Of a stretch of 64,000 bases of DNA, positions 10,940-59,406 are shown one piece after another (within the stretch, counting starts at the first letter, position 1; the number at the start of each line of letters is the position of its first letter). The stretch is from Acidimicrobiia bacterium (GTDB lineage: Bacteria > Actinomycetota > Acidimicrobiia > Spongiisociales > Spongiisociaceae), in the NCBI GenBank assembly GCA_963663955.1, contig OY760694.1, forward strand, positions 1,158,327 through 1,222,326. Reading direction: 5' to 3'. Under the pieces are notes generated by a model. The model was not told the DNA's origin, ran no database searches, and saw only the letters and a program-made list of their open reading frames with translations. Position numbers and translations under genes: made by a program.

Positions 10940-10956
10940 CTGCGATCCCTTTCTTA

Positions 10957-11161
10957 GTCCCGATTATTCATGGATGGGGGTTTGGAGGATGAGTGGAGTA
11001 GACCATATTCGCGCCCTGACCAGGCAATACAGCTGCCGGTGTTTCCCGTCCCGGTCCGGTGTGGAGACACACCTGTCCGGTGAACGGTGGGTTTCGCCCA
11101 ATACTCGGGTTGAACTGGCGTTACGCGCCACGGTGTGTGGGAAACCTGAATAATCAGGGGC
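10957..11161 (+). mobile_element. MITE copy A (205 bp, 16-bp TIR, TA flanks)
   Basis: It begins GCCCCGATTATTCA and ends TGAATAATCAGGGG. TA dinucleotides flank it at 10955-56 and 11162-63. It sits between an ABC permease gene and the deacetylase gene, inside an operon. Confidence 0.85.
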
Positions 11162-18215: not shown

Positions 18216-19502
18216 ATGCCGCTTGAAAAGCCTCGCCACCTGTCCCCAATCCTTACGCGTGCGACCGCCGTCCACGCTGCTCGCGGGGAGGGTGTCCATA
18301 TCATCGATCACCAAGGTAGGAAGTACCTGGACTTCACCTCCGGCATCGGAGTCACCAGCACCGGCCACTGCCATCCGAAGGTGGTTGAAGCGATTAGGAA
18401 ACAGTCCGGGAAGCTGATTCACGGACAGTACACAACCGTTCTCCATCCTCTTCTCGAGGAACTCGCAATTCGCCTGACAGAGGTGCTACCCGGCGAGATC
18501 GACAGCCTGTTCTATGTCAGCGCAGGTACCGAAGCCGTGGAAGCATCGGTCCGTCTGGCCCGCAACGCAACCGGCAAGTCGAATCTGGTGGTGTTCCACG
18601 GCGGGTTCCACGGCCGTACAACAGCCTCGCTATCGATGACCACCTCGAAGACCGGTTACGGAGACGGACTGCAACCCCTGATGGCCGGTGTGTTCGTAGC
18701 GCCGTTTCCTTATGCGTATCGCTATGGATGGGGTATCGAGGAGGCCGTTGACTTCTGCTTGAGGGAATTGGACTTCCTATTCGCGACCCAGACGGCGCCC
18801 AACGAAACCGCCGCAATGGTTGTGGAGCCTGTTCTGGGGGAGGGTGGTTTCGTCCCGGCGCCGGACAGGTTTCTCCAAGGGCTCCGGGAGCGGTGCGATC
18901 TTCATGGAGTTCTTTTGATTGTTGACGAGGTTCAGGCGGGGTTCGGACGCACAGGGAGTTTCTGGGGTCATGACCGTTCTGGTGTCATTCCTGACGTGGT
19001 CATCATGGCCAAGGGACTGGCTTCCGGAATGCCACTCGCTGCCATGGCTGCAAACCTGAAGCTCATGGAGAAGGCTTGGCCCGGATCACAAGGAGGCACC
19101 TACGGCGGGAACGCGGTCGGTTGCGCCGCCGCGCTGGCAACTCTCGATGTCATTCGGGAGGAACGGCTTGTTGACAACGCAGCGACGGTCGGATCCCGGT
19201 TATTGGAAAGCTTGCAGGAAGTAGCCCGGCAACATGAGGTCATCGGTGACGTGCGCGGAAGGGGCTTGATGATCGGGACGGAGTTTTCCCGTCCTGACGG
19301 TACCCCCGATGCTGAAACAGCCGCCAAGGTGCGCTACGAGTGTGAGCGTGGGGGGCTGCTGCTACTCCCATGCGGCGCGTTCGGCCAAGTGGTGAGATGG
19401 TTGCCTCCCTTGATCGTCTCGGAAGCCCAGGTCAAGGAAGCGGTCGGAATATTCGAGGCGGCTATCGCCGAAGTAACCAGTCAGGGACCGCATGAGCGAT
19501 AG
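18216..19502 (+). CDS. Class-III PLP-dependent aminotransferase (GabT/ArgD-like)
   Basis: 428 aa with class-III motifs, including DEVQAGFGRTG and the PLP lysine region. Its TAG stop is formed by the TA target site plus the first G of MITE copy B. Confidence 0.9.
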   Translation: MPLEKPRHLSPILTRATAVHAARGEGVHIIDHQGRKYLDFTSGIGVTSTGHCHPKVVEAIRKQSGKLIHGQYTTVLHPLLEELAIRLTEVLPGEIDSLFYVSAGTEAVEASVRLARNATGKSNLVVFHGGFHGRTTASLSMTTSKTGYGDGLQPLMAGVFVAPFPYAYRYGWGIEEAVDFCLRELDFLFATQTAPNETAAMVVEPVLGEGGFVPAPDRFLQGLRERCDLHGVLLIVDEVQAGFGRTGSFWGHDRSGVIPDVVIMAKGLASGMPLAAMAANLKLMEKAWPGSQGGTYGGNAVGCAAALATLDVIREERLVDNAATVGSRLLESLQEVARQHEVIGDVRGRGLMIGTEFSRPDGTPDAETAAKVRYECERGGLLLLPCGAFGQVVRWLPPLIVSEAQVKEAVGIFEAAIAEVTSQGPHER

Positions 19503-19705
19503 CCCCGATTATTCATGGATAGGGGTTTGGAGGTTGAGTGGATTAGACCATATTCGTACCCTGACCTGGAAATACAGGTATCAGCGTTTTCCCGTCCTAT
19601 CCGGTGTAGAGATTCACCTGTCGGGTGAATGGTGGGATTCTCTCAATACTCGGGTTGAACTGGCGTAACATACCTCGGTGTGTGGGAAACCTGAATAATC
19701 GGGGC
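19502..19705 (+). mobile_element. MITE copy B
   Basis: Same TIRs, TA flanks at 19500-01 and 19706-07. Confidence 0.85.
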
Positions 19706-21743: not shown

Positions 21744-22130
21744 GGTTAGGGCCGTACTGCTGAGAGTGGTGTCATCGCGTCGATGTCGTCGGTCGTCACG
21801 TTGATGACGGAAGGAACGAGGTACCTGAATCGTCCAGGCTTCCTCGTAGACTCTCTTGGACCCGGTATTTGAATGCCCTGGTAGGTTTGGTTGCGATGGC
21901 ACCTGCATATCCGTTAGATGGTTCGAGGGACTCCGGTACCGACCCGGCCTGCCACACTTGCCTATGGTGGGAACACCTTCCAACTCCGGATCTCGCCGCC
22001 GGCACGGGGTGGTGTCGCCGGTTTCCGCCCTGTCCAACCTGGCCGGTGACAGCGGCCCATGATTGGTGCGGCGAGTACCGGAGGAATGCGAGGACAGTCC
22101 GTATATCGGGCCAGATCCAACTCGGTATCT

Positions 22131-22336
22131 AGCCCTGATTATTCAGGTTTCCCACACACCGAGGCATACAAAGCCAGTTCCACCCGAGTATTGGGAGCAA
22201 CCCACCCGTTCACCCGACAGGTGAATCTCTACACCGGACCGGGATATAAACACCGATAGCTGTATCACCTGGTCAGGGCCGCGAATATGGTCTACTCCAC
22301 TCATCCTCCAAACCTCCATCCATGAATAATCGGGGC
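22131..22336 (-). mobile_element. MITE copy C
   Basis: Inverted orientation, TA flanks. It lies about 200 bp upstream of vapB. Confidence 0.85.
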
Positions 22337-22544
22337 TAAGTAAGGCATTACTGTCGGATGTACGTCGGGAGTTCAGGGTGGTGACCACAAATGATCGGGG
22401 CTCTGTTCTGGATTCCCTGCGCGTGCCGAACACACAAGTCGGTTTCGCCTTGCCACTAAACACTGCCATTTTTCGCTCTCAGTGCCCTGTCTGGTGTATC
22501 GGTTGGACATGTCCTAGAAAACCCCATGTGCTACTATGTAGAAC

Positions 22545-22823: not shown

Positions 22824-23213
22824 TTGTTCTATCTGGACACATCCGCAGCGATAAAGTTGATCTTCATCGAGTCGGGCTCGACGGCTCTTCGAAGATGGTG
22901 GGAGTCCTCTCATTCCGAGGTGGTATCGAGTGACCTCCTGCGGACCGAGTTGACCAGGGTGGTGCAGAGGGTGGATCCGAACCGAATGGTCGAAGCGACC
23001 GTGCTGCTTGATGCGCTGGTGTTGTTGAAACTGTCGACCACGGTGTGCCGACGGGCCGGGATGCTACGACCGGCAGTTCTGCGCAGTCTGGACGCCTTGC
23101 ACCTCGCTGCGGCTTTGGAGTTGGGTGATGAGATGGCAGGTCTGGTTAGCTATGACCGGAGATTGAACGCCGCCGCCAGGGCTTCGGGGATTCCGGTTAT
23201 CAGTCCCTCTTAG
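22824..23213 (+). CDS. vapC: PIN-domain toxin VapC
   Basis: 129 aa with PIN acidic residues (LDTSA, DALHLAAA, YD). The TAG stop is created by the TA target site plus the first G of MITE copy D. Confidence 0.85.
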   Translation: MFYLDTSAAIKLIFIESGSTALRRWWESSHSEVVSSDLLRTELTRVVQRVDPNRMVEATVLLDALVLLKLSTTVCRRAGMLRPAVLRSLDALHLAAALELGDEMAGLVSYDRRLNAAARASGIPVISPS

Positions 23214-23416
23214 CCCTGATTATTCAGGTTTCCCACAAACCGACGCATGGAACGCCCGTTCAACATAAGTATTAGGATAAATCCAGCCTTCACCCGCGGG
23301 TGACCCTCCAACACCGGTCCGGGATGGGAAACACGATAGCTGTATTGCCTGTTCAGGGGCGTGATTACGGCGTAATCGACTCATCTGTCAAACCCCCATC
23401 CATGAATAATCGGGGT
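23213..23416 (-). mobile_element. MITE copy D
   Basis: TA flanks at 23211-12 and 23417-18, same orientation as copy C. Confidence 0.85.
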
Positions 23417-23581
23417 TAGGTGATCCGAGGCAACGTACCCGGAGCAAACCGACCCTATCCGGGTTGCTCAGCACCGGATGGGTCGATCTCACCGGTTTAC
23501 ATAGTCGCCGAACTTCTCGGTCGGCGTGAAGAACCGGAAACCGACTGTGGACGAGTTCTTAGGGTCTCCACGCCGTGATCA

Positions 23582-25855: not shown

Positions 25856-26174
25856 CGCCGCTGCCTCAGACGACCCGGAGCTGACCGAGATGGTCGTCCC
25901 GGTCGAATGGTTCGCCACACGGCCCCTTGAGCAGGCGGTTTTGGGAGAAAGGCCTTTTCGCCTCACAGGTCACCGTCTGCAAACTGCGCGACGAGAACAC
26001 AATCAAGACGGTCGAGTCGGCGTTCGGGCTCGACTCTCCAATTGACTGATCGACCGGCCCTCAAGCCAGTGTCCCACGGCTTGCTTAGTGGACTGCCCCC
26101 ATTGCTGCTCGTCCGTTTAGGGGGGCTGATGATGGGAAGGAGGAGCCGCGAAGGTTCTCCAGAAGGTATAGCTA

Positions 26175-26379
26175 GCCCTGATTATTCAGGTTTCCTACAC
26201 ACCGAGGCATGTAACGCCGGTTCAACCCGAGTATCAGGATCACTCCACGGTTCACCCGACAGGTGGACCTCGCACACCGGACCGGGACGGGAAACGCTGA
26301 TAGCTGTATTGCCTGGTCAGGGTGAGATTATGCCCTACTCCACTCATCCTCCAAGCCCCCATCCGTGAATAATCAGGGC
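26175..26379 (-). mobile_element. MITE copy E
   Basis: TA flanks at 26173-74 and 26380-81. Confidence 0.85.
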
Positions 26380-26463
26380 TAGAGTCTTCGACTTTCCTAG
26401 ACGGGGTCGAACGGCTTCCGGGCACGGGGGAGTAGGAGGTAGAACGGTATGGACCTCGGCAGG

Positions 26464-28347: not shown

Positions 28348-29037
28348 TGGGCCACGTCCAAGGGGTGGTATACGGGTGGGGTTGCTACGGCTCCGTCGCT
28401 TGCGGATTCAACTCGACGAAGCGTCGGGCCGAACATGGAGGGCTAGTCTCGCGCAGCGCCGCCCACCTTCGTGGTTGGTTATAACACCTAAGAAGACTAG
28501 CGGATAGGCGGAGCGCGCTCGCCCGCGTAGTCACTTCGACGCGACTGCCGGTCACTAAACCCAAGGTCATCGTAGTCGGCTCTTGACCTGTCGCAGCCGC
28601 CGTTCGTCACCGAGGCCGACGGCAACCCGTTTCCTTAAGACGGTTATTCCCAGTCGCAAGGCGATGAGATACTATTGGGGGAGGTAGACCCGTGAACTAC
28701 GAACTGATTTACGAAGAGCGCCTTCCCTCCTCCAACCACGCACTCCGGCAGTCTGTGGACTCCGGGAGCTGACGCCTCTGGATCAATGGTCGTTAACCGC
28801 GGGCCCGCTTGACGCTGATAGCCGCCCAATAGGGGAATGCCAGACCACATACCCAGTACCGATCGAAGATAGCCTCGGTCAGAAGCACGATTAGGGCCAC
28901 CTTCGTTGGTCATTTGGCCCGGGCCATCCCGGAAGGAAAGCGGTTCGGTGTAGGTCGGCCTCTAGCCGGCCGGTCGTGGTCCGCCTTGGTAACCCCCGGG
29001 CGGACCAGCACGCCTGAACGGTCCACCAGACGGGTTA

Positions 29038-29240
29038 GCCCCGATTATTCATGGTGGGGGTTTGGAGGATGCGTGGGATAGGCCATATTCGCGTCCTGAA
29101 CAGGCAATACCGCTAACGGCGTTTTCCGTCTGGGTCCGGTGTGCAGAGGCGCCTGCAGGGTGAACGGTGGGTTTATCCTGATACTCGGGTTGATCTGGCG
29201 TTACATGCCTCGGTGTGTGGGAAACCTGAATAATCAGGGC
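29038..29240 (+). mobile_element. MITE copy F
   Basis: TA flanks at 29036-37 and 29241-42. Confidence 0.85.
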
Positions 29241-34299: not shown

Positions 34300-34412
34300 T
34301 GCGCGGTTACCAGTACCGGGTTGGCCGCGGGTCCGTTATTAGGCTCCACCAAGAAGGCGTTGGCCCCAAGAGTCATCGTGAACCTCTCAATGGATTCCAT
34401 CCGACCGCCGTT
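34300..34412 (-). pseudogene. Relic 5' end (promoter-proximal region plus first codons) of a paralog of the OLD/PARIS-like ATPase gene
   Basis: It aligns to 37945-38090, covering the upstream region, start codon and P-loop-encoding segment of the 36268-38064 gene. There is a roughly 43-bp internal deletion (encodes MESIERFTMTLGANAFLVEPNNG...). Confidence 0.65.
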
Positions 34413-41762: not shown

Positions 41763-44154
<2,392 letters not shown>

Positions 44155-47340: not shown

Positions 47341-47398
47341 CGCTTTCCATATGGGATAGAAGCTATCCGAGGCCGGTTAGATTACAGAGTCGGGATTA

Positions 47399-47602
47399 GC
47401 CCCGATCATTCATGGATGGGGGTTTGGAGGATGAGTGGAGAAGACCAGATTCGCGCCCTGACCAGGCAGTACAGCTATCGGCGCTTCCCGTTTCGGTCCG
47501 GTGTAGAGTTTCACCTGTCGGGTGAACGGCGAGTTTCTCTTGATACTCGGGTTGAACAGGCGTTACATGCCTCGGTGTGTGGGAAACCTGAATAATCAGG
47601 GC
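47399..47602 (+). mobile_element. MITE copy G
   Basis: TA flanks at 47397-98 and 47603-04. It sits 30 bp upstream of the acyl-CoA synthetase start. Confidence 0.85.
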
Positions 47603-49174: not shown

Positions 49175-49383
49175 GGCCTGTTAACACTACTACGGCGGTA
49201 TGTTAGCGAGAGGTGGGTAAGTTTAGTTAAGTGTGTTTAAGGAGGCAAGGGGGGCTCGACGAAGCTACCTATACCCGATCTTATATGCTGTTAACTAACG
49301 GTTCGGTGTATCTCCAAGACTTGCGTGAACAGGCCCTAACTAACCCCGATCCTCTACTGATCAAGGATTGAAACAGGCGAGCC

Positions 49384-49803
49384 TCAGTCACTATCGAAGT
49401 CGATGGCTGCGGAGTTGATGCAGTAGCGGAGTCCGGTAGGGCGTGGTCCGTCCGGGAACACGTGTCCTAGATGGCATTGACAGCGGCTGCACACTACTTC
49501 GGTCCTCACCATCCCGTAGCTATGGTCGGAATGTTGGTCGATGGGCGCTCCATCTACCACATCGTAGAAACTGGGCCATCCGGTGCCCGAGTCAAACTTC
49601 TGGTCACTACTGAACAGTGGTGTACCACACCCTATACAGCGGTAGGTCCCGTCCTCCTTGGTGTTCCAGTACTCACCGGAGAAGGCTCGTTCGGTTCCCG
49701 CCCCCCGGGCGACGCGGTATTGCATAGGGCTCAGCTTCCGGCGCCACTCTTCGTCGGTTTGGGGAATCGAGGCCTCGTCCTGCGAGTTGGCGGTCTCGGT
49801 CAT
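49384..49803 (-). CDS. msrB: Peptide-methionine (R)-S-oxide reductase MsrB
   Basis: 139 aa from MTETAN. CxxC...CxxC zinc cysteines and the catalytic RYCINSAA motif are present. The tool ORF extends implausibly upstream. Confidence 0.85.
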
Positions 49804-50034
49804 TCCGGTACTCCTTTCCGATGGTCTCGGGACAATCCGCCGGGAGCTATTCGGCGACCGGACAGCCGGCCGGACCTCCCGTTGCAAGGATATTCGACCT
49901 TCACATGTCGGCGGGCTTAAATCGCTTGCAGGTTTGACCTGGCGACCATCACCCGTCGAAACGGGATCATTCGGACCACCCGGGACTCGGTTCCGATACC
50001 CTGCTAGCCACTCAACTCCTCTAGTCTTGCATAT

Positions 50035-51783
50035 ATGGAGACTAAACCCACGCACCCGCCTAACAGCCCTCGGACCTCAGTCGGATCACGCGTCGATTAT
50101 GCGATCATCGGAGTGGTGGCAACCGGGGTTGCACTGGCCGCGTCCGAGGTGGTGGCCGGCCTTTTTCTGTCAGCTCCGTCGTTGATCCGGACAATCGGGC
50201 AGCGGATCATCGACATTACCCCGGCCGCGGTCGAGGACTGGGCGATCTCTACATTCGGCACCAACGACAAGGCGGTGCTGATCGCCGGAATCGTGGTGGT
50301 TTCCCTGGCTATAGGGGCGTTGCTCGGTATGTTGGCCAGGGAGAGGCTCCGCCTAGCCGTCTCCGGTTTCGTAGCCTTCGGGTTGGTGGGTTTCGTAGTG
50401 GGTCTTAGCGATCCTCTGTCCACCACCATGTTGACGCTGGTGGCCGGGGTTGTTGCCGCCGGCGCCGGCGCCGGCATCCTGCTGGGCTTGCGTTCCCTGC
50501 TTGAGAGAGAATCCATGCCCGGTACGGACTCCCCCGCACCGGATGAGGTTGGAGCGGAATCAAGACGCGCCTTCATGAGGGCTTCGGTAAGCGCGGCCTT
50601 CCTGGCTGTAGTCGGGGTAGCGCTGGGCCGTTTTCTGGCTGAACGTGAATCTTCGGCCATCAGGGGACGAGATCAGGTAACCCTTCCCTCGGCTTCCGGC
50701 TCTTCACCTACCACTGCGGCTTCTTCGGCTTCCGGCGCTTCACCTACCCAGCCGACCACAGCCGTTACTACCACCACGTCGGCTGCAGGAGAACCGGTTG
50801 CCGAGACTCCGGTTCAGGAAACCGCCACGACCACCCGGCCCGCGTCGGAAGGCGGTGTGTCGGGTGTGCCGGATCCGGTACCCTCACAGGTGGCGCCGGT
50901 GGAGGGGGTGTCGGAGTTGATCACACCGAACTCCGACTTCTACCGGATTGACACCGCTTTGAGTATCCCCCGGGTCGATGTAGACACTTGGAAGCTCTCA
51001 TTCCGGGGTTCGGTCGACAATCCCTTTGCAGTCACCTATGACGAGCTACTACAGATGCCGTTGGTCGAGCGTTACGTGACCCTCTGCTGCGTGTCCAATC
51101 CCGTTGGAGGAACCCTGGTAGGTAACGCAAAATGGTTAGGGGTTCCCCTGCGGAGCCTGGTCGAACAGGCCGGGGTCCGCTCCGAAGGTGATCAGCTGAT
51201 AGGCCGCTCAGTGGACGGATTTACGGTTGGGTTTCCAACTAGCGCGGTGTTCGACGGGCGGGAAGCTCTGGTTGCTGTGGGTATGAACGGAGAACCCCTC
51301 CCCCTTGCTCACGGCTTCCCGGCGCGCCTGGTGGTGTCCGGACTGTATGGATACGTCTCGGCGACCAAGTGGTTGTCCGAGATCGAGTTCACCGGCTGGG
51401 ATGACTTCGATGCGTACTGGATTCCTCGAGGATGGGCAAAGCAGGCCCCTATCAAGACACAGTCCCGCATAGACACCCCTAGGGCGGGAGCCTTAGCTAC
51501 CGGAAACCAGGTGATCGCGGGGGTTGCGTGGGCTCAGAACCGGGGTATCGAGCGGGTTGAGGTCCAGGTCGGTGAGGGCCCTTGGATGGATGCGAACCTT
51601 CCGGAGGAGCTGACGATAGATACCTGGCGGCAGTGGTATCTGGAGTATGACTTTCCTAGTGGAGTACATGTGATCTCGGTCCGGGCTACCGACGCTACGG
51701 GCGAGACACAACCGGCCGAAATGCAGGGCGCCCGACCGGATGGAGCTACCGGCTATCACATGGTGAGCGTCAACGCCTCCTGA
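50035..51783 (+). CDS. Molybdopterin-dependent oxidoreductase (sulfite-oxidase family, MsrP/YedY-like) with an N-terminal membrane domain
   Basis: N-terminal TM helices and a Pro/Thr-rich linker, then a Mo-cofactor-binding domain ([12 protein letters not shown]) and a dimerisation domain. Confidence 0.8.
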
Positions 51784-51802
51784 CGCCTCGTCGACTTCCC
51801 TG

Positions 51803-52546
51803 TCAACTGCCGGCGTGAGCTTCGAGGAGGTGGTCAGGTATGTCGAAGTTCCCGTACACCTCTTGGACATCGTGGAGCTCGTCGAGCGCGTCGACCAGAC
51901 GAAGGACCCGGTTGGCCTTCCCGGCTTCCAATTCGATGGTGACGGAGGGGAGCTGTGTTACTTCGGCAGACTGTACGGCCAACTCCGCCCCCGCCAGCGC
52001 GTCACGGACAGTGGGCATTTCAGACGGGTCGGTTATCACCTCGAACTGGCCTCCGCTCGGTCTGACATCCTCGGCGCCCGATTCGAGCGCAGCTAGGAGG
52101 ATGTCATCCTCATCACCCTCAACCAAGAGGTAGCCCTTCTGGTCGAATAAGTAGCTGACCGATCCGGGTTCTCCCAGGTTCCCGCCGTTTCTGGTGAAGG
52201 CCGACCGGACATCCGACGCGGCCCGGTTCCGGTTATCGGTGAGAACGTGGACCAGCAAAGCCACTCCCCCGGGAGCGTATCCCTCGTAGAACATGGTTTC
52301 GAGCCTGTCTCCGACCAGATCTCCCCTGCCCCTCTTGATGGCTCGCTCGATGTTGTTCTTGGGTACGGATGCCGACTTGGCGTTGTCGATGGCGTTGGCC
52401 AGGACCGCGTTGAGGGCGGGTTCTCCTCCCCCTTGGCGAGACGCGGCCTCGATCGCCCTGCACAGCTTGGCGAACAGGTTGCCGCGAGCCGCATCCTGTC
52501 TGCCCTTGCGGTGTTTGATGTTCGCCCATTTCGAGTGACCGGCCAT
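51803..52546 (-). CDS. yebC: YebC/PmpR-family DNA-binding regulator
   Basis: MAGHSKWANIKHRKG N-terminus, 247 aa. Confidence 0.9.
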   Translation of the reverse strand: MAGHSKWANIKHRKGRQDAARGNLFAKLCRAIEAASRQGGGEPALNAVLANAIDNAKSASVPKNNIERAIKRGRGDLVGDRLETMFYEGYAPGGVALLVHVLTDNRNRAASDVRSAFTRNGGNLGEPGSVSYLFDQKGYLLVEGDEDDILLAALESGAEDVRPSGGQFEVITDPSEMPTVRDALAGAELAVQSAEVTQLPSVTIELEAGKANRVLRLVDALDELHDVQEVYGNFDIPDHLLEAHAGS

Positions 52547-52552
52547 CGGCTA

Positions 52553-53134
52553 TTATCCAACCATCTCAAGCAACATACGGTGCAAGCGCAGATCTCCGGT
52601 GAGTTCCGGATGGAAGGCTGAGGCGATCACATGATCCTGCATGACCAGGACGGGCGAACCGTCGTGCCGGGCCATCACCTGGACCTGCGGGCCGGTTCTC
52701 TGTACTACCGGAGATCTGATGAAGACGGCGTGGATGGCGTCGCGCCATCCCTCGACCTCCAGCTCGTATTCGAATGATTCGTTCTGGCGGCCGAAGGCGT
52801 TGCGTTCCACCACCATGTCGAGGATTCCCAGTTGAGGTTGGGCGCCTTCGGTAACACCGGAAGCGAGGAAGATCATTCCCGCACAGGTGCCCAACGTAGG
52901 AAGACCGGCCCGAATATGCTTGCGCAGCGGTTCGATCATGCCGTAGAGCCTGGCGAGGCGTCCGATCGTGGTCGATTCACCTCCGGGAATGATGAGCGCA
53001 TCCACAGTGTCGAGGTCGGCAGGCAATCGGACCTGTCGGCCGATCGCGCCGCTTGCAGCCACTGAATCCAAGTGGTCACGCACCCCTCCTTGGAGCGCGA
53101 GCACACCCACTACCGGGGCCGGAGCCTCCGGCAC
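52553..53134 (-). CDS. pdxT: Pyridoxal 5'-phosphate synthase glutaminase subunit PdxT
   Basis: Class-I glutamine amidotransferase with GTCAG and the HPE catalytic triad region. Confidence 0.9.
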   Translation of the reverse strand: MPEAPAPVVGVLALQGGVRDHLDSVAASGAIGRQVRLPADLDTVDALIIPGGESTTIGRLARLYGMIEPLRKHIRAGLPTLGTCAGMIFLASGVTEGAQPQLGILDMVVERNAFGRQNESFEYELEVEGWRDAIHAVFIRSPVVQRTGPQVQVMARHDGSPVLVMQDHVIASAFHPELTGDLRLHRMLLEMVG

Positions 53135-53139
53135 GGTTC

Positions 53140-54069
53140 CTACCAGCCCCGGTCTTGCATCCGCTGGGAAGCCGGAATGGTTTCGATCTCGATACCGACC
53201 ATCGCTTCGCCGAGGTTGCGTGACACCTTGGCGAGTATCTGGGCGTCGTTGTAGAAGGTGGTGGCTTCGACGATCGCCCGCGCCCTGACCGCGGGGTTGC
53301 CGCTCTTGAAAATCCCTGACCCTACGAACACCCCGTCACAGCCGAGCTGCATCATCATGGCTGCGTCAGCCGGGTTGGCGATCCCACCCGCTGCAAAGTT
53401 GACGACCGGTAGCCGACCGAGTTCCGCCACCTCGCGCAGCAAGTCGATCGGAGCGTTCAGGTCGCGGGCCAGAGCCATGATCTGGTCGTGACCGGCCCGC
53501 ACCGCCCTGCTTATCTCGTTGTTCATCTTGCGCATATGGGTGACCGCCTCCACCACGTTGCCGGTGCCCGGCTCGCCCTTGGTGCGGATCATCGCCGCTC
53601 CCTCCCCTATACGGCGGAGCGCTTCCCCCAGGTTGCGGGCGCCGCACACGAACGGAGTTGTGAATGCCCACTTGTCAATGTGATGTTCGACGTCGGCCGG
53701 CGTCAGCACTTCGGACTCGTCGATGTAATCGACGCTGAGGCCCTGCAAAATCTGGGCCTCCACGAAGTGGCCGATCCGAGCCTTGGCCATTACCGGAATG
53801 GAGACCGTTTCCATGATTTCTTCCACCCTGGCCGGATCCGCCATGCGCGCAACGCCACCGTGAGCGCGAATGTCGGCAGGTACTCGTTCCAGTGCCATGA
53901 CCGCGACGGCGCCGGCCTGTTCAGCGATCTCGGCCTGCTCCGCGTTGACAACGTCCATGATGACCCCACCCTTGAGCATCTCTGCGAGTCCCCGCTTTAC
54001 CCGTGCAGTGCCGGTGGTATGGCCTTTGGTGCCCTGTTCCACTGCCCCTTCCCTTCCATGACCAGTCAA
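53140..54069 (-). CDS. pdxS: Pyridoxal 5'-phosphate synthase lyase subunit PdxS
   Basis: Highly conserved PdxS/SNZ sequence ([13 protein letters not shown]...[15 protein letters not shown]...). Confidence 0.9.
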
Positions 54070-54323
54070 ACGGTAATCCTACTTGTAAATAGGAGGGTAC
54101 TGAAATGATGATCTAGACATCCCATGAGTGTAAATGTCAAGCTGCGGCTTGGTCGAGGGCGGTTCGGTGTGCCCAGGCGGTGTGTTAAGGATGCCTACGA
54201 GTCGATTGGCGAGGTGTAATTCCCCACCAACGCTGATTGGTCCAACCTATACGGCCGGGTTCGTCGAACATTGTGAAATACATATCGCATTGCAATACGG
54301 TACGCTCGTCGCATGGTGCGGAC

Positions 54324-54537
54324 GTGGCTCGAATCGACGAGGAGTTGGCGGTCGAGGTTGACCGCGGCGTGGTCAGGTCCAAGTCGGAGGCGGTTCGTTG
54401 GGGACTGCGGGAACTCCTCGAGCGGGAGAGACGTCAAACCATCGGGGCTGCGATTGTTGAGGGGTACCGGCGCATCCCACAGACCGGGAGTGAGGCCGGC
54501 TGGACAGACGATTCAGCCAGGTCCATGATCGCCCAGG
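54324..54537 (+). pseudogene. parD: ParD-family (ribbon-helix-helix) antitoxin gene truncated by a partial MITE; no cognate toxin gene follows
   Basis: The frame reads VARIDEELAVEVDRGVVRSKSEAVRWGLRELLERERRQTIGAAIVEGYRRIPQTGSEAGWTDDSARSMIAQ, resembling ParD (..SASEVIRSALRLLE..E..L..I.EG..SG..). It reads through into repeat sequence at 54538. Confidence 0.5.
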
Positions 54538-54617
54538 TAGCTGTATTGCCTGGTCAGGGGCGTGATTACGGCGTAATCGACTCATCTGTCAAACCCCCAT
54601 CCATGAATAATCGGGGT
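54538..54617 (-). mobile_element. MITE partial copy H (right half only)
   Basis: 79 of 80 positions identical to the right half of copy D. It ends with a TA flank at 54618-19. Confidence 0.8.
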
Positions 54618-54726
54618 TACTGGTTACCCACCGGTATGCAGAGGGGGTGTGACAGTTTTTTACGGCGGTCGGGCAGCGCCCGTCAGAAAGATTTCTCGGT
54701 CTCCCGAACACAAGCGACACAACGAT

Positions 54727-55761
54727 TCAGGACGCCAGAGCCTTTCTGTACAGGGTTCGATAGTGATCGGTAACCATTCCCCAATCGAATGCCATCACCC
54801 GCTCCGAGGATGCCGCAGCCAGCCTTCCGCGGAGGTCGGCATCGGTCAGGACACGGACGAGAGCGGAGGCAAGGGCTGCTCGGTCGCCGTTGGGAAACAG
54901 GAGACCTGAGCCGTCCAACACATCAGAGAAGGCGATCAGGTCGCTTGCCACAATGGCGCATCCGGCCGCCATTCCCTCGGCTACCGTGATCCCGAAGCTT
55001 TCTCCTCCCCTGTTGGGGGCGCAGAACACCGCGCTGGTGGCCAAGACGGTACGCTTTTCTTCCTCACTTATTCGGCCCAAATAGCGTACCCCTTCTACAG
55101 GAGGCTCGTCCCCACCCCCGATTATGACCAGTTCGGCGTCCGGCGCCAGTGAACGTACCCGGGGCCATGAATCCAGGAGTAGGTCGCGTCCTTTCCGGGG
55201 CTCGGGGCGGCCGACGAAAGCCACCTGGCGGTGGTTCCTTTCGTTCGGTATTCGGAATGCCCCGACGTCGATAGCGTTGGGAATCACCACCGGCTGGATG
55301 TCCAGCATGTCGATTCCTCGCCGGGCGGTCCGGCTGACGGTCGTGGTCAGGCAGCCGCGCAGTTGGCGGCGGAGAATCGTGCGGGTCGCTCGGTAGAATG
55401 CCTTCACCGTCGGGGGTGGGTCGGCGTGAAAGGTGACCACTCGGGGTTTTCGGGGCACCAGGGCGGCCCAACCGACCAGCGGTACAAAGGGTTCGTGTAT
55501 ATGAACCATATCCGCCCGATGCAGCGCCTCCGCGACCCGGCGGGCAACCCCCGGCGAAAGTCCCAGCGGAGCTCTCGAACGGTTGGCGCGTACCGTTACC
55601 GACCTCCCCACGTCGATCCGGTCGGATCCCTCTCCCGCGGCAGGAGCCACCACGTAAGCTTGGTCACCGTGACCCTGCAGCTGTCTTACTAGGCCCGTCA
55701 CCTGCTGCTGGACCCCACCGGGAACATCGAGTCCGTACGGAGAGACAACGGCGATTCTCAC
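54727..55761 (-). CDS. pimA: GT4 glycosyltransferase (PimA-like phosphatidylinositol mannosyltransferase)
   Basis: GT-B fold with the EX7E-type motif region (ESFGITVAEGMAAG). It is the third gene of the pgsA-patA-pimA operon and its ATG overlaps the patA stop (ATGA). Confidence 0.75.
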   Translation of the reverse strand: MRIAVVSPYGLDVPGGVQQQVTGLVRQLQGHGDQAYVVAPAAGEGSDRIDVGRSVTVRANRSRAPLGLSPGVARRVAEALHRADMVHIHEPFVPLVGWAALVPRKPRVVTFHADPPPTVKAFYRATRTILRRQLRGCLTTTVSRTARRGIDMLDIQPVVIPNAIDVGAFRIPNERNHRQVAFVGRPEPRKGRDLLLDSWPRVRSLAPDAELVIIGGGDEPPVEGVRYLGRISEEEKRTVLATSAVFCAPNRGGESFGITVAEGMAAGCAIVASDLIAFSDVLDGSGLLFPNGDRAALASALVRVLTDADLRGRLAAASSERVMAFDWGMVTDHYRTLYRKALAS

Positions 55762-56678
55762 TCTTGCATCCGATGGTCATCTCTCCGATGATCGACAAGG
55801 TAACGGTGGTCGGACGGCCAGTTCGGTTGAACGAGGTGCCATTGGGTGGGCGCGGACCTTATCAGTTCTTCGAAACGGTGGGCCAACTCCTGGGTCATCA
55901 CCTCGGCCCGTCGCGGGGTTGTAGCAGGCGGGGGTGACACAGGTGGAAGAACCAACATCCGGTGACCGGCGCCCGATTTGAAGTACGAGGCGCAAGGTAG
56001 GAGGACCGCGCCGGTTCGCAGGGCCAACACCGCCGGTCCGGCGGGCAGAGAGGTTCGCTCTCCGAAGAAATCGACTTCGATGCCCTTTCCCCCGATGTTT
56101 CGATCGGCGACCAGGGCAACCAGCCTTCCCTCCCTTAGCGCGGTCAGCAGCGCCCTGATGGTGGAGGGGCCTTTGGCGAGGATCACCTGTATCGAGAGTT
56201 GGGCCCTCAGGCTCACGAACCATGCAGCAAGGCGGCGGTTCTCCAGAGCTTCGGCCACCGCGGTGATGCGCACCCCCACCTCATCGGAAAGGGTGCCCGC
56301 CATCTCCCAGTTCCCCATATGGGGTAACGCCACGATTATCGGACGGTTCTCGGCTTGGGCCGCTCTTACATGTTGCAGGCCTTCCAGGCTCATCCGACCG
56401 CGGACCTGATCGGCGCGACGGGGCCGGAACCAAAGGGTCTCAGCCCAGTATCGGCCGTACTCGGCAAACATTTCTCGAGCTGCGTTCCGGACCGCCCCGC
56501 TGTTCTCGTGGCCCAACACCCGCCCCATGTGTCGGAGAGCCATTGCCTTGCGATCCTTGGCCCAGTACCACGACATTCGGCCTGCTGCGCGCCCGAGATG
56601 ACGGATGACCGGTTCAGGTAAGACCGTGATCAGACCGGCCCCTAGCCGGTAAGCGATAAAGGTTGCCCAGCCACTCAC
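55758..56678 (-). CDS. patA: PatA-like phosphatidylinositol-mannoside acyltransferase (HtrB/LPLAT family)
   Basis: LPHMGNWEMAG (HX4D-variant loop), VDFFGERTSLPAGPA and QWHLVQPNW match mycobacterial PatA. A GTG start overlaps the pgsA stop (GTGA). The tool ORF (521 aa) runs on spuriously. Confidence 0.75.
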   Translation of the reverse strand: MSGWATFIAYRLGAGLITVLPEPVIRHLGRAAGRMSWYWAKDRKAMALRHMGRVLGHENSGAVRNAAREMFAEYGRYWAETLWFRPRRADQVRGRMSLEGLQHVRAAQAENRPIIVALPHMGNWEMAGTLSDEVGVRITAVAEALENRRLAAWFVSLRAQLSIQVILAKGPSTIRALLTALREGRLVALVADRNIGGKGIEVDFFGERTSLPAGPAVLALRTGAVLLPCASYFKSGAGHRMLVLPPVSPPPATTPRRAEVMTQELAHRFEELIRSAPTQWHLVQPNWPSDHRYLVDHRRDDHRMQE

Positions 56679-57268
56679 CCGCTGAGTTGGCGCCAGGTCT
56701 TGTAGAAACGTTGGAACACGGTGAGCCAGGTGAGGGTGGCCAGCAACCAGAGCATGATCGTCACCTGGTTCAGCGCCAGACCGACGGTGAACAGGATCAC
56801 CCGCTCGGCGCGACCCATGATTCCTCCCCGCCCCTCGACGCGGCCGATGTCCGCCTTGGCCCTCATGTAGGAGACCAGCAGTGACGCCCCGAGGCTCAGC
56901 ACGCACAACACCACCAGGGCCGGATCTCCCTCTTGCGGCGATCGAAGTGAGGAAAGCCAGAAGGCGCACCCGGCGAACATGGCAGTCTCGCCTAGGCGGT
57001 CCGACACCGAATCGATCAGCGCGCCGCGGGCGGATGCCGTGCCGGCCGCTCGTGCAACCGCCCCGTCGAGACCGTCTAGGGCGGAACCCACCAGGATGAC
57101 CAAAGCTCCCGCCTGAACGTCGCCGTTTGCGAGCAACCCCGATCCGATCAGGGTTACAACGAGGCCGGTGAGGGTCAGGTGAGCCGGGCGGACCCGGATC
57201 CGCACCAGTCCACGGCCCAGCGGGGCTACCACCTTCTCGACATGTTGTCGGGTCCACAGTTCGATCAA
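56675..57268 (-). CDS. pgsA: CDP-alcohol phosphatidyltransferase (phosphatidylinositol phosphate synthase PgsA1-like)
   Basis: CDP-OH-P motif DGLDGAVAR...GALIDSVSDR, 197 aa, membrane protein. Confidence 0.85.
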   Translation of the reverse strand: MIELWTRQHVEKVVAPLGRGLVRIRVRPAHLTLTGLVVTLIGSGLLANGDVQAGALVILVGSALDGLDGAVARAAGTASARGALIDSVSDRLGETAMFAGCAFWLSSLRSPQEGDPALVVLCVLSLGASLLVSYMRAKADIGRVEGRGGIMGRAERVILFTVGLALNQVTIMLWLLATLTWLTVFQRFYKTWRQLSG

Positions 57269-57333
57269 ATAATGCTCCTTGTATTTGGCAAAGTACCATA
57301 GTTACGCCGTTCCGCACGATCACCTACACTCGG

Positions 57334-59406
57334 TTGTCCGAGAGGAGGTTCGCCAGGATGGGACCGGACAGAATACGCAACGTGGGGTTGTTCGGCCACG
57401 GCGGTGCAGGCAAGACCGCTGTGGCCGAAGCACTCCTGTACAACGCGGGGATGACTACCCGCATCGGTACTGTCGAAGCCGGCAATACCGTGATGGACTA
57501 CGAGCCCGAGGAGATTGAACGTCAGAATTCGCTTGGGTTGGGGATTGCCGCGTTCAATCTCAATGGTCACCGGGTAAACCTGATCGATACACCCGGTTAT
57601 GCAGATTTCATCGGTGACGCTCTCGCTGCTCTGAGAGCAGTGGATATCGCCATTTTTGTGGTGTCCGCGGTGGATGGTGTCGAAGTTCAGACCGAATTGC
57701 TTTGGGAGGCTGCTCAGCAGGAAGGGATAGCCAAGGCGGTTTTCATCAACAAGCTGGATCGCGACCGCGCCTCCTTCTCCCGTACGCTTGACCAGTTGAT
57801 CGAGGTATTCGGTAAGCGAATCGCACCGGTTCAGATACCGATCGGCGCCGAAGATGACTTTTCGGGAATAGTCCGTCTGGTGTCGGGCCAGGCTATGGAA
57901 TACCGGAATGGTCAGACTAAGGGATCACCCAAGAGCCCCCCGCCTGAGGTAGCCGACATGTTCGACGAGACCCGCCTGGCGCTGGTGGAGACGGTGGTCG
58001 AAACCGACGATGACCTCCTCGAAGCCTATTTCGAGGGCGAAGAGCCGTCAGCGCAGCAAATGATACGGGTTATTCACGACGGGATGATCGCCGGCGAAAT
58101 GTTCCCGGTCCTGGTCGGGTCGGCGGGGTCCTTGGTGGGGATTGACACCCTGGCCGAGTTTATTGTCGACTTCGCTCCCACCCCTCTCGAACGTCCCATG
58201 CCATCCACCAGCGTCGGTGATCTGGCCCCCGATCCGACCGGTCCGATAGCCGCCTACACCTTCAAGACATCCGGTGACCAGTACGTCGGGCGTGTTAACA
58301 CCTTCCGCGTGTTCTCGGGCTCGCTCGATCTCGATGGTTTCCTGGAAACCTCAGGGGGATCTCGGGTCAGGATGACCAATCTCTTCGCCATGCAGGGGAA
58401 GGACCATGCAGACGTAGGACCGGTCGGCGTGGGGTCGATCGCATCGGTCGCGAAACTGGATGCGCTCCGAGTGGGCGACACCCTACGATCACCCGGCGCC
58501 GGGGTGGAGATAGTTCCGGTTCAAGTACCGCAACCTGTACACGAGGTCACCGTCATACCGCGGTCCACCCACGACGAGGACAAACTTTCAACCGCGCTGG
58601 CCCGCGTTCAGGAGGAGGATCCCACCATTGTGGTGGAGCGACGGCCCGAAACCAAGGAGACCGTAATGTCCGGCCTGGGAGAAGCCCATGTGTCTGTCAC
58701 GCTGGCCCGAGTTTCACGGCGCTTTGGAGTAGAGGTCAATGTCGGGATACCGCGCATCCCCTACCGTGAGACGGTGCTGGGCCGGGCGGATGTGGAAGGC
58801 AAGCACAAGAAGCAGTCCGGTGGCCGAGGGCAGTTCGGTGTGGCCTACGTCAGATTCGAGCCCAACCAACGTGGAGAAGGCTACGAATTCGTAGACCGGA
58901 TAAAGGGCGGCTCCATCCCTCGCAACCTGATACCGGCTGTGGACAAAGGCATTAGAGAAGCTCTGGAGCGGGGAATCCTGGCCGGCTATCCGGTGATCGA
59001 TGTCCGAGCGACGGTGTACGACGGAAAGTTCCACTCGGTTGATTCGGACGAACTCAGTTTCCGGATGGCCGGGATCATGGCGGTTCGGTCGGCGGCGCCG
59101 GATCTACGGGCCACGATCCTGGAGCCCATATCCGTGGTCAACGTACGGGTACCCGAGGACTATATGGGCGATGTCATCGGAGACATCAACTCGAAGCGGG
59201 GCCGCGTTCTCGGAATGGATGCGGACGGACGGAGTCGGGTGGTTAGCGCCGAAGTTCCGATGTCGGAGATGCAAAGGTATTCTGTGGACCTACGGTCTAT
59301 GACCGGGGGCCGGGGATCGTTCGAGATTTCGTTCTCCCACTATGACCCGGCGCCGCCCCAGGAGGTTCGGAAGGTCGTGTTGGCGTCCCAATCCGATTCC
59401 GATTAG
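57334..59406 (+). CDS. Elongation factor G paralog (EF-G2-like translational GTPase)
   Basis: G motifs GHGGAGKT and DTPGYADF, with EF-G domains II to V. Confidence 0.85.
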   Translation: MSERRFARMGPDRIRNVGLFGHGGAGKTAVAEALLYNAGMTTRIGTVEAGNTVMDYEPEEIERQNSLGLGIAAFNLNGHRVNLIDTPGYADFIGDALAALRAVDIAIFVVSAVDGVEVQTELLWEAAQQEGIAKAVFINKLDRDRASFSRTLDQLIEVFGKRIAPVQIPIGAEDDFSGIVRLVSGQAMEYRNGQTKGSPKSPPPEVADMFDETRLALVETVVETDDDLLEAYFEGEEPSAQQMIRVIHDGMIAGEMFPVLVGSAGSLVGIDTLAEFIVDFAPTPLERPMPSTSVGDLAPDPTGPIAAYTFKTSGDQYVGRVNTFRVFSGSLDLDGFLETSGGSRVRMTNLFAMQGKDHADVGPVGVGSIASVAKLDALRVGDTLRSPGAGVEIVPVQVPQPVHEVTVIPRSTHDEDKLSTALARVQEEDPTIVVERRPETKETVMSGLGEAHVSVTLARVSRRFGVEVNVGIPRIPYRETVLGRADVEGKHKKQSGGRGQFGVAYVRFEPNQRGEGYEFVDRIKGGSIPRNLIPAVDKGIREALERGILAGYPVIDVRATVYDGKFHSVDSDELSFRMAGIMAVRSAAPDLRATILEPISVVNVRVPEDYMGDVIGDINSKRGRVLGMDADGRSRVVSAEVPMSEMQRYSVDLRSMTGGRGSFEISFSHYDPAPPQEVRKVVLASQSDSD

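What the first reader, a model, noticed from the sequence alone, without database searches (positions are those of the whole stretch)
54324..54620. Orphan, C-terminally truncated parD antitoxin fused to a half-MITE that is 79/80 identical to copy D
An RHH ParD-like antitoxin ORF (from GTG 54324) runs directly into a partial MITE beginning at about 54538. Only the right half of the element is present. No ParE/RelE-family toxin gene follows. The next gene is pimA of a conserved core operon. The half-element matches the right half of copy D (23337-23416) at all but one position. Full copies are far more divergent from one another. This looks like recent recombination or gene conversion between MITE copies that deleted the 3' end of parD and the parE toxin. 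It is a plausible route for decay of toxin-antitoxin loci.
Basis: partly seen in the sequence, partly recalled or inferred. Interest (0 to 1): 0.6.

Follow-up and report, generated by a model that had tools for sequence, protein, structure and literature searches.

The report
Decayed antitoxin gene joined to MITE fragment
This is the broken leftover of a toxin-antitoxin gene pair whose toxin (a MazF-type RNase, not ParE) has been deleted, and it is joined to the right-hand 40% of a small mobile repeat. It is an ordinary case of gene decay, but five related genomes each lost the same toxin in a different way, which documents it unusually well.

Summary
**Observation: confirmed.** Window 54538-54619 matches 23337-23418 (copy D) at 81 of 82 bases. 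The seven full copies of this ~208-bp repeat are only 72-85% alike. The repeat has terminal inverted repeats and TA flanks. No toxin gene follows.

**Interpretation: partly right.**
- The ribbon-helix-helix (RHH) gene is only weakly ParD-like; all ParD models score below threshold.
- More distant relatives (L005, L006) carry an intact pair in the same pdxS–pimA gap. It is an 82-aa RHH antitoxin plus a 103-aa PemK/MazF toxin, closest to *M. tuberculosis* MazF3.
- The window copy is a pseudogene with three lesions:
  - a 1-nt deletion after codon 3 of the true ATG at 54313;
  - a 12-bp deletion that removes two invariant residues;
  - replacement of the last three codons and the stop by the MITE fragment.
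- Close relatives (92-99% identical flanks) each carry a different toxin-destroying deletion. Two of those involve no MITE.
- Copy D is absent from its site in three close relatives, so it is a very recent insertion.
- The near-identity of D and the half copy is therefore best explained by recent transposition of one subfamily, followed by an illegitimate deletion of about 0.34-0.45 kb.
- Gene conversion is not needed, though it is not excluded.

**Verdict:** a known phenomenon (a degraded TA locus leaving an orphan antitoxin) involving an apparently undescribed MITE family. Interest is low to moderate.

The parts
54313..54537 (+). Pseudogene of an 82-aa RHH antitoxin (mazE-like role, weakly ParD-like sequence). 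Its lesions are: ATG 54313 is the ancestral start position; a 1-nt deletion lies between 54322 and 54323 (relatives read AGATCGTGG, the window reads GGA-CGTGG); a 12-bp in-frame deletion at the GACCG repeat 54360-54364 removes R18-L19-V20-D21; the last antitoxin-derived base is G 54537, the first base of codon 80.
   Evidence: Alignments with 14 homologues and 6 orthologous loci. tblastn of the L005 antitoxin covers residues 5-79 only. L19 and V20 are invariant in the family.
54324..54773 (+). It gives 149 aa: 71 aa of antitoxin-derived sequence, then 78 aa of read-through across the MITE fragment, the spacer and the antisense 3' end of pimA.
   Evidence: ORF list. Only sub-threshold Pfam and NCBIfam hits: VapB_antitoxin 20.4 bits against a cutoff of 23.4, ParD 12.9 against 21, TIGR02606 22.7 against 46.2.
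54538..54619 (+). Right-hand 80 bp of a D-type MITE plus its flanking TA (54618-54619). The left ~124 bp of the element and its left TA are missing.
   Evidence: 81/82 identical to 23337-23418. Alignment with all copies.
23211..23418 (+). MITE copy D. It is full length: 204 bp between two TA dinucleotides. It sits in the TA of the TAG stop codon of vapC and regenerates that stop.
   Evidence: The site is empty (CCCTGTTAGGTG) in three relatives, L013, L015 and L016. ORF end at 23213.
54283..54302 (.). Imperfect palindrome TATCGCATTGCAATACGGTA immediately upstream of the antitoxin start. It is a candidate autoregulatory operator. L002 has the perfect 12-mer GTATTGCAATAC.
   Evidence: The function is inferred only.
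54620..54726 (.). Spacer between the MITE end and the pimA stop. It is conserved in the close relatives and holds a terminator-like hairpin on the minus strand (54708-54695), presumably serving pimA.
54727..55761 (-). pimA-like GT4 glycosyltransferase, convergent with the antitoxin remnant.
   Evidence: Pfam families on the exact protein, and the neighbouring Lip_A_acyltrans and CDP-OH_P_transf genes.
53140..54069 (-). pdxS (SOR_SNZ), divergent from the antitoxin remnant.
22130..22341 (+). Full MITE copy upstream of the Phd-VapC module. It is also present in the ERR3887488 strain.
26173..26384 (+). Full MITE copy.
10954..11159 (-). Full MITE copy.
19499..19704 (-). Full MITE copy.
29034..29239 (-). 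Full MITE copy.
47396..47601 (-). Full MITE copy. It belongs to the subfamily closest (92-93%) to both copies seen in relative L002.

Best explanation
The feature is a dead remnant of a chromosomal type II toxin-antitoxin operon. The operon once encoded an 82-aa ribbon-helix-helix antitoxin and a 103-aa MazF/PemK endoribonuclease toxin. It lay between pdxS and pimA and was convergent with pimA.

**Shown**
- The intact operon still sits at this position in more distant relatives.
- Each of the five closely related genomes, the window included, carries a different toxin-destroying deletion.
- The window has no toxin sequence left.
- Its antitoxin gene carries a frameshift after codon 3, a 12-bp deletion that removes invariant core residues of helix 1, and loss of the last three codons and the stop.
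- The 3' junction is to position ~125 of a MITE that ends at a TA site downstream of the former toxin.
- The repeat is a real mobile element that inserts at TA and duplicates it.
- Copy D, the near-twin of the fragment, is an insertion specific to the window's lineage.

**Inferred**
- A D-type MITE transposed recently into the TA site downstream of the toxin. This happened in the same burst that produced D, or this copy was D's parent.
- One illegitimate deletion of roughly 0.34-0.45 kb, with no microhomology at the junction, then removed the left 60% of the MITE, whatever remained of the toxin, and the antitoxin's last three codons.
- With no toxin left to neutralise, the antitoxin gene drifted and picked up the other two lesions.

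The remnant probably makes no functional protein.
For: **The ancestral module**
- The homologues are 78-87 aa, most of them 82. They start MxQ(I/L)V.R and most end in EEPW.
- L005 and L006 carry RHH plus an intact 103-aa PemK toxin in the same synteny.
- The closest solved structure to the toxin is MazF3.

**Remnants in the close relatives**

| Locus | Toxin residues left | Antitoxin | MITE at this site |
|---|---|---|---|
| L014 | 1-60 | intact, 82 aa | none here |
| L003 | 1-34, then 72-97 in another frame | frameshifted | none |
| L002 | 1-24 | 78 aa | full copy follows the toxin remnant |
| L004 | none | 81 aa | last 27 bp only, joined at a CCCCCAT microhomology |
| window | none | residues 5-79, with a 4-aa gap | right 80 bp |

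**Relatedness.** Flank identity to the window is 98.4% for L003, 97.9% for L004, 98.6% for L014 and 91.6% for L002.

**Mobility of the repeat**
- L002:844 is a filled site and L004 is the matching empty site, with a TA duplication.
- D is filled in the window and empty in L013, L015 and L016.
- The element pairs only through its terminal inverted repeats; the fold z-score is -1.3. It has no Rfam match.

**Subfamilies**
- The copy at the same site in L002 belongs to a different subfamily. It is 95% identical to the window's 47396 copy and 80% to the half copy over the right half.
- The window fragment is therefore not the diverged orthologue of L002's copy.
Against: - L002 and L004 share the MITE right junction (GGGGTTA|CTGGTTACCC). 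A resident older copy at this site, later converted by D, therefore cannot be excluded.
- The flank phylogeny conflicts. On the left the window groups with L003 and L014, which lack the MITE. On the right it groups with L004, which has the remnant. The order of events is blurred by recombination between strains.
- No third D-type copy or master copy was found. Searches beyond the 64-kb window failed or were uninformative.
- Whether the deletion removed a still-intact toxin or an already broken one is not known.
- Non-expression was not tested.
Confidence: 0.72

Rival explanations
1. An older MITE copy already lay beside the TA module. Recombination or gene conversion with copy D overwrote its right half, and the same event deleted the antitoxin 3' end and the toxin.
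For: - A MITE sits at exactly this TA site in L002 and L004, so a resident copy may predate D.
- L002's copy belongs to another subfamily. That is what one would see if the window's copy had been converted.
- D and the half copy are 81/82 identical, against 72-85% among full copies.
Against: - D is itself a lineage-specific recent insertion, and L003 and L014 lack the MITE at this site. Recent transposition explains the identity without any further event.
- The D-type and consensus-type right halves differ at about 15 of 82 positions. Their only long identical run is about 30 bp at the very end. That is a poor substrate for RecA-dependent conversion (established knowledge on minimal homology).
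- Conversion would not create the antitoxin/MITE junction, which has no homology.
- Crossing-over between the two direct copies would delete 31 kb of genes that are present.
Confidence: 0.12
2. The ORF from GTG 54324 is still a working orphan RHH protein. It could be a transcription factor for the divergent pdxS promoter, or an anti-addiction antitoxin against incoming MazF toxins. On this view the MITE-encoded tail is tolerated.
For: - The reading frame is open for 149-178 codons.
- Orphan antitoxins have been proposed to act as anti-addiction modules (review PMC7354431).
- The antitoxin is intact in L014 although its toxin is truncated.
Against: - The ancestral start is out of frame.
- The beta-strand residues V2, Q3 and I4 are lost if GTG 54324 is used as the start.
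- Invariant L19 and V20 are deleted, and the near-invariant E80 and the terminal W82 are lost.
- RHH_1 matches all 13 intact homologues but not the window ORF.
- Each close relative carries a different antitoxin lesion: L003 a frameshift, L002 a premature stop, L004 loss of W82. That is the pattern of relaxed selection, not of co-option.
Confidence: 0.06
3. This rival concerns the order of events. The deletion seen in the window was itself the toxin-killing event. It removed an intact mazF together with the antitoxin's last codons in one step, rather than clearing away an already dead remnant.
For: - L003 and L014 keep different, complementary parts of the toxin: residues 1-34 plus 72-97, and residues 1-60.
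- Their common ancestor, about 98-99% identical to the window, therefore still had a full-length toxin.
- A deletion that takes the toxin and the antitoxin's C-terminus together is viable. Loss of the antitoxin's C-terminus alone would not be (established TA logic).
Against: - On the left flank the window groups with L003, with 28 informative sites against 11 and 7. L003's toxin already has an internal deletion.
- The state just before the deletion cannot be recovered from the window.
Confidence: 0.35

Closest known systems
MazEF (PemIK) type II toxin-antitoxin systems with an RHH antitoxin, for example the M. tuberculosis MazEF3 pair. The toxin MazF3 is solved in PDB entries 5uct and 5cca.
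   Same: - In intact relatives the downstream gene is a 103-aa PemK/MazF-fold protein: PF02452 at 37.8 bits against a cutoff of 23.1, and MazF3 E 1e-11.
- The order is antitoxin first, and the two genes overlap (L005 5001-5249 and 5243-5554).
- The antitoxin model has an ordered N-terminal region and a low-confidence C-terminal third, consistent with a disordered toxin-binding tail.
   Different: - The window has no toxin at all, and its antitoxin is a triple-lesion pseudogene.
- The antitoxin's sequence and modelled fold resemble ParD-type RHH proteins more than any solved MazE.
- No toxicity or neutralisation was tested.
ParD antitoxins of ParDE systems (Caulobacter ParD1, PDB 3kxe; M. tuberculosis ParD1, PDB 8c24)
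   Same: - They are the nearest solved relatives of the antitoxin family, but the matches are weak: profile E 0.015, and best fold-search E 0.47 at 30-36% identity.
- TIGR02606 (ParD family) is the best NCBIfam hit.
   Different: - All ParD models score below their curated thresholds.
- The partner in intact loci is MazF, not ParE.
- No ParE/RelE-like ORF exists in any of the seven loci examined.
Orphan antitoxins as remnants of degraded TA systems, as surveyed in Klebsiella, Mycobacterium and Caulobacter (a parE pseudogene leaving ParD without a mate). Source: review PMC7354431.
   Same: An antitoxin gene is left without a toxin after the toxin gene decayed. The remnant then degrades in turn (for the literature; for this locus).
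   Different: Here the stages are visible side by side in seven orthologous loci. They include five independent toxin-inactivating deletions within one group of genomes whose flanks are 92-99% identical.
TA-duplicating bacterial MITEs derived from IS630/Tc1-mariner-type elements, such as Neisseria Correia elements and cyanobacterial Nezha. This comparison rests on my own knowledge and was not tested.
   Same: - About 204 bp with ~18-bp terminal inverted repeats.
- No ORF of its own.
- Many copies: 7 full copies in 64 kb.
- Insertion at TA with TA duplication.
- Presence/absence polymorphism between strains.
   Different: - No parent transposase was identified.
- The IS3-family and IS30-family elements in the window have unrelated ends.
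- The family matches nothing in Rfam. It could not be compared with an IS database.

Membership tests
ParDE toxin-antitoxin (ParD antitoxin) | The sequence reaches the curated threshold of a ParD model (Pfam PF03693 or NCBIfam TIGR02606). | tested here: not met
   Window ORF: PF03693 12.9 bits against 21, and TIGR02606 22.7 against 46.2. Intact orthologue L005: 17.4 against 21, and 35.9 against 46.2.
ParDE toxin-antitoxin (ParD antitoxin) | A cognate ParE/RelE-fold toxin is encoded immediately downstream. | tested here: not met
   Intact loci L005 and L006 encode a PemK/MazF toxin instead. There is none in the window.
Ribbon-helix-helix (CopG/Arc/MetJ) DNA-binding superfamily | An RHH_1 profile match and the N-terminal strand, helix, helix layout. 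| tested here: met
   All 13 intact homologues match PF01402 at E<0.01, and P0005 scores 21.0 against 20.5. The model has two N-terminal helices, with the strand modelled as helix in the monomer, and its nearest folds are RHH antitoxins and NikR. The window copy itself no longer matches RHH_1.
MazEF/PemIK type II TA module | A PemK/MazF-fold toxin gene adjacent to and co-oriented with the antitoxin. | tested here: met
   This holds for the ancestral module only. L005 5243-5554 scores 37.8 bits on PF02452 against a cutoff of 23.1, and matches MazF3 at E 1e-11. Remnants of the same gene are in L014, L003 and L002. It is not met in the window, where the toxin is absent.
MazEF/PemIK type II TA module | The toxin inhibits growth and the antitoxin neutralises it. 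| not testable with these tools
   This needs expression experiments.
MITE (non-autonomous TIR transposon) | Short, non-coding and multi-copy, with terminal inverted repeats. | tested here: met
   Seven full ~208-bp copies plus fragments in 64 kb, with ~18-bp terminal inverted repeats. Only short incidental ORFs.
MITE (non-autonomous TIR transposon) | Target-site duplication, and filled versus empty sites between related genomes. | tested here: met
   TA is duplicated at L002:844 against the empty site in L004. The same holds for copy D against the empty sites in L013, L015 and L016.
IS630/Tc1-mariner-derived MITE | An autonomous element with the same terminal inverted repeats that encodes a DDE transposase of that family. 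| not tested
   No such element is in the window. Both genome-wide scans failed. The TA duplication is the only pointer.

The most novel reading that the evidence does not exclude
The TA dinucleotide just downstream of this mazF may be a MITE landing hot spot. If so, breakage at the MITE's left end (for example abortive excision followed by end-joining) would be what repeatedly deletes the neighbouring toxin.

- Three of the five independent toxin-loss alleles (window, L004, L002) have a deletion that spans or abuts the left boundary of a MITE at this same site.
- At least two different MITE subfamilies occupy the site in different lineages.
- A third insertion sits 100 bp away, in the pimA stop codon of L014.

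If this is right, MITEs would act as a deletion engine that purges chromosomal toxin genes.
Probability: 0.22. Interest if true: 0.5.

Novelty: new member of a known kind. Interest (0 to 1): 0.3.

Why it matters
On its own the locus is a pseudogene with no likely function.

Its value is as a natural time series. Seven orthologous loci show the following states:
- an intact RHH-MazF module (L005, L006);
- a toxin truncated at the 3' end with an intact antitoxin (L014);
- a toxin with an internal deletion and a frameshifted antitoxin (L003);
- a toxin stump followed by a full MITE (L002);
- no toxin, an almost complete antitoxin and a 27-bp MITE scar (L004);
- the window's triple-lesion antitoxin fused to a half MITE.

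This supports the view that chromosomal TA modules are lost toxin-first, and that orphan antitoxins are mostly wreckage. It also cautions against naming the missing toxin from the antitoxin's fold alone, because a ParD-like RHH protein is paired with MazF here.

It also documents a currently active TA-duplicating MITE family in an uncultured, probably Acidimicrobiia lineage. Members of that family can land in stop codons (vapC in the window, pimA in L014) and regenerate the stop.

Tried and rejected
- **Genome-wide MITE census.** No census of D-type copies and no organism title could be obtained.
- **Metagenome scan.** The 20-mer gave one hit (L011), which on inspection is a chance match and not a MITE.
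- **Viral contigs.** No match.
- **Protein search with the 54-aa ORF inside copy D**, as a proxy census of D-type copies: no candidates.
- **Known or structured RNA.** There is no Rfam hit on any copy. The DNA fold z-score is -1.3 and only the terminal inverted repeats pair. Rejected.
- **Parent transposase in the window.** The only transposases are an IS3-family element interrupted by an IS30-family element. Their ends are unrelated to the MITE's. Rejected as parents.
- **A second D-type left half, or a reciprocal junction, in the window.** Only copy D itself was found.
- **Sigma-70 promoter scan.** Nothing convincing upstream of the antitoxin. Statements about expression remain inference.
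- **Excision footprint in L003.** I considered whether L003's empty site (CTTTACGGGTTTACCC against CTGGTTACCC in the others) is an excision footprint. It lacks the expected TA-x-TA form, so I treat the differences as ordinary substitutions.
- **Taxonomy.** Only indirect evidence: homologues at about 70% identity are named Acidimicrobiia or Acidimicrobiaceae MAGs.

Full report
**1. What is in the sequence**

Window 54538-54619 and 23337-23418 are identical at 81 of 82 positions. None of 100 shuffles gave such a match.

Both stretches belong to a repeat of about 208 bp, and the window holds seven full copies. Those at 10954, 19499, 29034 and 47396 lie in one orientation. Those at 22130, 23211 ('D') and 26173 lie in the other. 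The element has terminal inverted repeats, TAGCCCTGATTATTCAGG and CCATGAATAATCGGGGCTA, and TA at both flanks.

Full copies are 72-85% identical to each other. Over its 82 bp the fragment is 99% identical to D and 78-83% to the rest. The match to D starts exactly at TAGCTG and stops at the element's end, and the flanks are unrelated. About 124 bp of the left part of the element is missing.

The ORF in the frame of GTG 54324 does run into the fragment. It continues to a stop at 54771-54773.

**2. What the ORF is**

On its own, the window ORF gets only sub-threshold hits:
- VapB_antitoxin: 20.4 bits against a cutoff of 23.4.
- ParD_antitoxin: 12.9 against 21.
- TIGR02606 (ParD family): 22.7 against 46.2.

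A homology search found 14 relatives, 78-87 aa long apart from one mis-called 123-aa frameshift product; most are 82 aa. They begin MxQ(I/L)V.R(I/V)D, and most end in MIAEEPW. All 13 intact members match Pfam RHH_1.

The nearest solved proteins are ParD antitoxins, but the matches are weak:
- The sequence profile matches 3kxe at E 0.015.
- Foldseek on an AlphaFold model (pLDDT 93-95 over residues 11-50, low-confidence C-terminal third) gives *M. tuberculosis* ParD1 8c24 as best hit, at E 0.47 and 30-36% identity.

'RHH, ParD-like' is therefore a fair description of resemblance, but membership of the ParD family is not met.

**3. The window copy is a pseudogene with three lesions**

Comparison with six orthologous loci shows three lesions.

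- **Frameshift.** The ancestral start corresponds to ATG 54313. One T is missing between 54322 and 54323; relatives read AGATCGTGG where the window reads GGA-CGTGG. Translation from the ancestral start is therefore out of frame.
- **In-frame deletion.** Twelve bases are deleted between two GACCG repeats at 54360-54364. This removes R18, L19, V20 and D21. L19 and V20 are invariant in the family.
- **3' replacement.** From 54538 the last three codons (E80, P81, W82) and the stop are replaced by the MITE fragment. The junction CCCAGG|TAGCTG shows no microhomology.

tblastn with the intact orthologue covers residues 5-79 only.

**4. The missing toxin was MazF, not ParE**

Look-ups of the homologues recovered the same gene neighbourhood in other assemblies: yebC, pdxT and pdxS on one side, and pimA, the acyltransferase and pgsA on the other.

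In L005 and L006, whose flanks are about 72% identical to the window, the RHH gene is followed by an overlapping 103-aa gene. That gene matches PemK_toxin at E 2.4e-9 and 37.8 bits, against a cutoff of 23.1. Its closest solved structure is *M. tuberculosis* MazF3, at E 1e-11.

No ParE/RelE-like gene is present in any of the loci. The window has no trace of the toxin.

**5. A series of independent decays**

Four close relatives were compared with the window. Flank identity to the window is 98.4% for L003, 97.9% for L004, 98.6% for L014 and 91.6% for L002. Each locus has a different lesion.

| Locus | Toxin | Antitoxin | MITE |
|---|---|---|---|
| L014 | residues 1-60 (3' deletion) | intact, 82 aa | none at this site; one in the pimA stop codon instead |
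| L003 | residues 1-34, then 72-97 in another frame (internal deletion) | frameshifted | none |
| L002 | residues 1-24 | 78 aa (premature stop) | full copy |
| L004 | none | 81 aa | last 27 bp only, joined at a 7-bp CCCCCAT microhomology |
| window | none | residues 5-79, three lesions | right 80 bp |

L003 and L014 keep complementary parts of the toxin. Their common ancestor therefore still had a full-length gene, so toxin loss is recent and has recurred. MITEs are not needed for it, because two of the five alleles have no MITE endpoint.

**6. The repeat is a real MITE, and copy D is young**

- L002 has a copy between the AMP-binding gene and the SelR gene. L004 has the empty site there, and the insertion duplicated TA.
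- Copy D lies in the TA of the TAG stop codon of a vapC gene. The site is empty (CCCTGTTAGGTG) in L013 (ERR3887488), L015 (the genome that holds L004) and L016 (the genome that holds L014).
- The element folds only through its terminal inverted repeats, with a z-score of -1.3. It matches no Rfam family.

D is therefore an insertion specific to the window's lineage. The MITE next to the antitoxin is likewise absent from L003 and L014, the relatives closest on the left flank.

The copy that L002 carries at the same TA site belongs to another subfamily. Over the right half it is 95% identical to the window's 47396 copy and 80% to the half copy. Both L002 copies have TAACCC...GGGTTA ends.

**7. 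Most likely history**

1. A D-type MITE inserted recently at the TA site downstream of the toxin. Either it belongs to the same burst as D, or it was D's parent.
2. A single illegitimate deletion then removed the left 60% of the MITE, the toxin or its remnant, and the antitoxin's last three codons. Its size would be about 0.34 kb if the ancestor looked like L003, and about 0.45 kb if the toxin was still full length.
3. The frameshift and the 12-bp deletion are later or unrelated drift in a gene with nothing left to neutralise.

Gene conversion by D of an older resident copy is not excluded, since L002 and L004 show that a MITE can sit at exactly this junction. It is not needed, however, and it is mechanistically awkward. 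The two subfamilies differ at about 15 of 82 positions, with only about 30 bp of perfect identity at one end. Reciprocal recombination between D and this copy would have removed the 31 kb between them.

The flank phylogeny conflicts between the two sides. On the left the window groups with L003 and L014. On the right it groups with L004. That indicates recombination between strains, and it limits how firmly the events can be ordered.

**8. Comparison with what is known**

Orphan antitoxins left over from degraded TA systems are well documented. Examples include a Caulobacter parE pseudogene that leaves ParD without a mate, and large surveys in Klebsiella (review PMC7354431).

From my own knowledge:
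- RHH antitoxins paired with MazF toxins are known.
- Toxin and antitoxin families are known to mix.
- TA-duplicating MITEs are typical of IS630/Tc1-mariner relatives.

The parent transposase was not found here. The IS3-family and IS30-family elements in the window have unrelated ends.

**9. Limits**

- Both scans of the reference-genome collection failed. The metagenome, viral and protein proxy searches were uninformative. I therefore could not count D-type copies genome-wide or name the organism.
- The source is a 4.14-Mb contig present in NCBI, ENA and Logan. Homologues at about 70% identity are labelled Acidimicrobiia.
- Expression and function were not tested.

**10. Verdict**

It is wrong on the toxin family and probably wrong on the mechanism.

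This is a new example of a known phenomenon. The comparative series is instructive, but the locus has little functional consequence.

Noticed in passing
window 22130-23418: A Phd/YefM antitoxin (22545-22820; PF02604) and a PIN/VapC toxin (22824-23213; PF01850) are bracketed by two MITE copies in direct orientation, 22130-22341 and D at 23211-23418. D sits in the TA of the vapC TAG stop codon and regenerates the stop. Relatives have the module and the left MITE but not D.
   Followed up: yes
L014 4029-4250 (4.016-Mb relative, ERZ25069711 ctg17310): In this relative a MITE in the opposite orientation is inserted in the pimA stop region. PimA is one residue shorter (343 aa), and the new TAG stop is formed by the TA plus the first base of the MITE. 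This is the second case of this MITE landing in a stop codon and supplying a new one.
   Followed up: partly
window 41711-44511: Nested insertion sequences. The outer one is an IS3-family element: orfA 41763-42086 (HTH_Tnp_1), orfB 42083-42835 (rve), an ALIL frameshift pseudoknot at 42041-42157 (Rfam RF01497, 99 bits), and inverted repeats at 41711-41735 and 44487-44511. It is interrupted by an IS30-family element: a 466-aa transposase at 42747-44147 (HTH_38 + rve) with inverted repeats at 42707-42727 and 44128-44148. Neither has ends like the MITE.
   Followed up: partly
window 19749-19800: A degenerate, truncated MITE end (CTAGCCTCGGATTGTTCATGGATGGGGGTGTGAGGG...) lies about 45 bp from the full copy at 19499-19704. 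The half copy at 54538 is therefore not the only fragment.
   Followed up: no
L002 836-1045 versus L004 1050-1080: The empty target site of an L002-specific MITE insertion reads AAC-TA-ACTAACCCCGATTCTC. The insertion thus lies next to a sequence that matches the element's own terminus, TAACCCCGATT, at 11 of 11 bases. The TA site beside the antitoxin is likewise followed by GGTTACCC, which resembles the end GGGGTTA. This may be insertion next to terminus-like sequence, or it may be coincidence.
   Followed up: partly
window 48000-58800 versus L002, L003, L004, L014: The flank phylogenies disagree. Left of the locus the window groups with L003 and L014 (17 sites set L004 and L002 apart). Right of it the window groups with L004 (32 sites, against 12 and 11). 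This suggests homologous recombination between co-occurring strains, with a breakpoint near the TA locus.
   Followed up: partly
window 25741-25841 and 29322-29423; 34334-34393 and 37959-38018: Two pairs of short direct repeats, 85-86% identical and 3.58-3.63 kb apart, that are not MITE copies. Their nature is unknown; they may be paralogous gene segments or shared regulatory sequence.
   Followed up: no
window 54070-54310 versus L002 5740-5900 and L004 5880-5910: The divergent pdxS/antitoxin promoter region is also unstable. L002 has about 150 bp of unrelated sequence there, and L004 lacks about 60 bp that the window and L003 have.
   Followed up: no
window 1-8000: G+C is higher (0.63-0.65) in the first 8 kb than in the rest of the window (0.58-0.62).
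   Followed up: no
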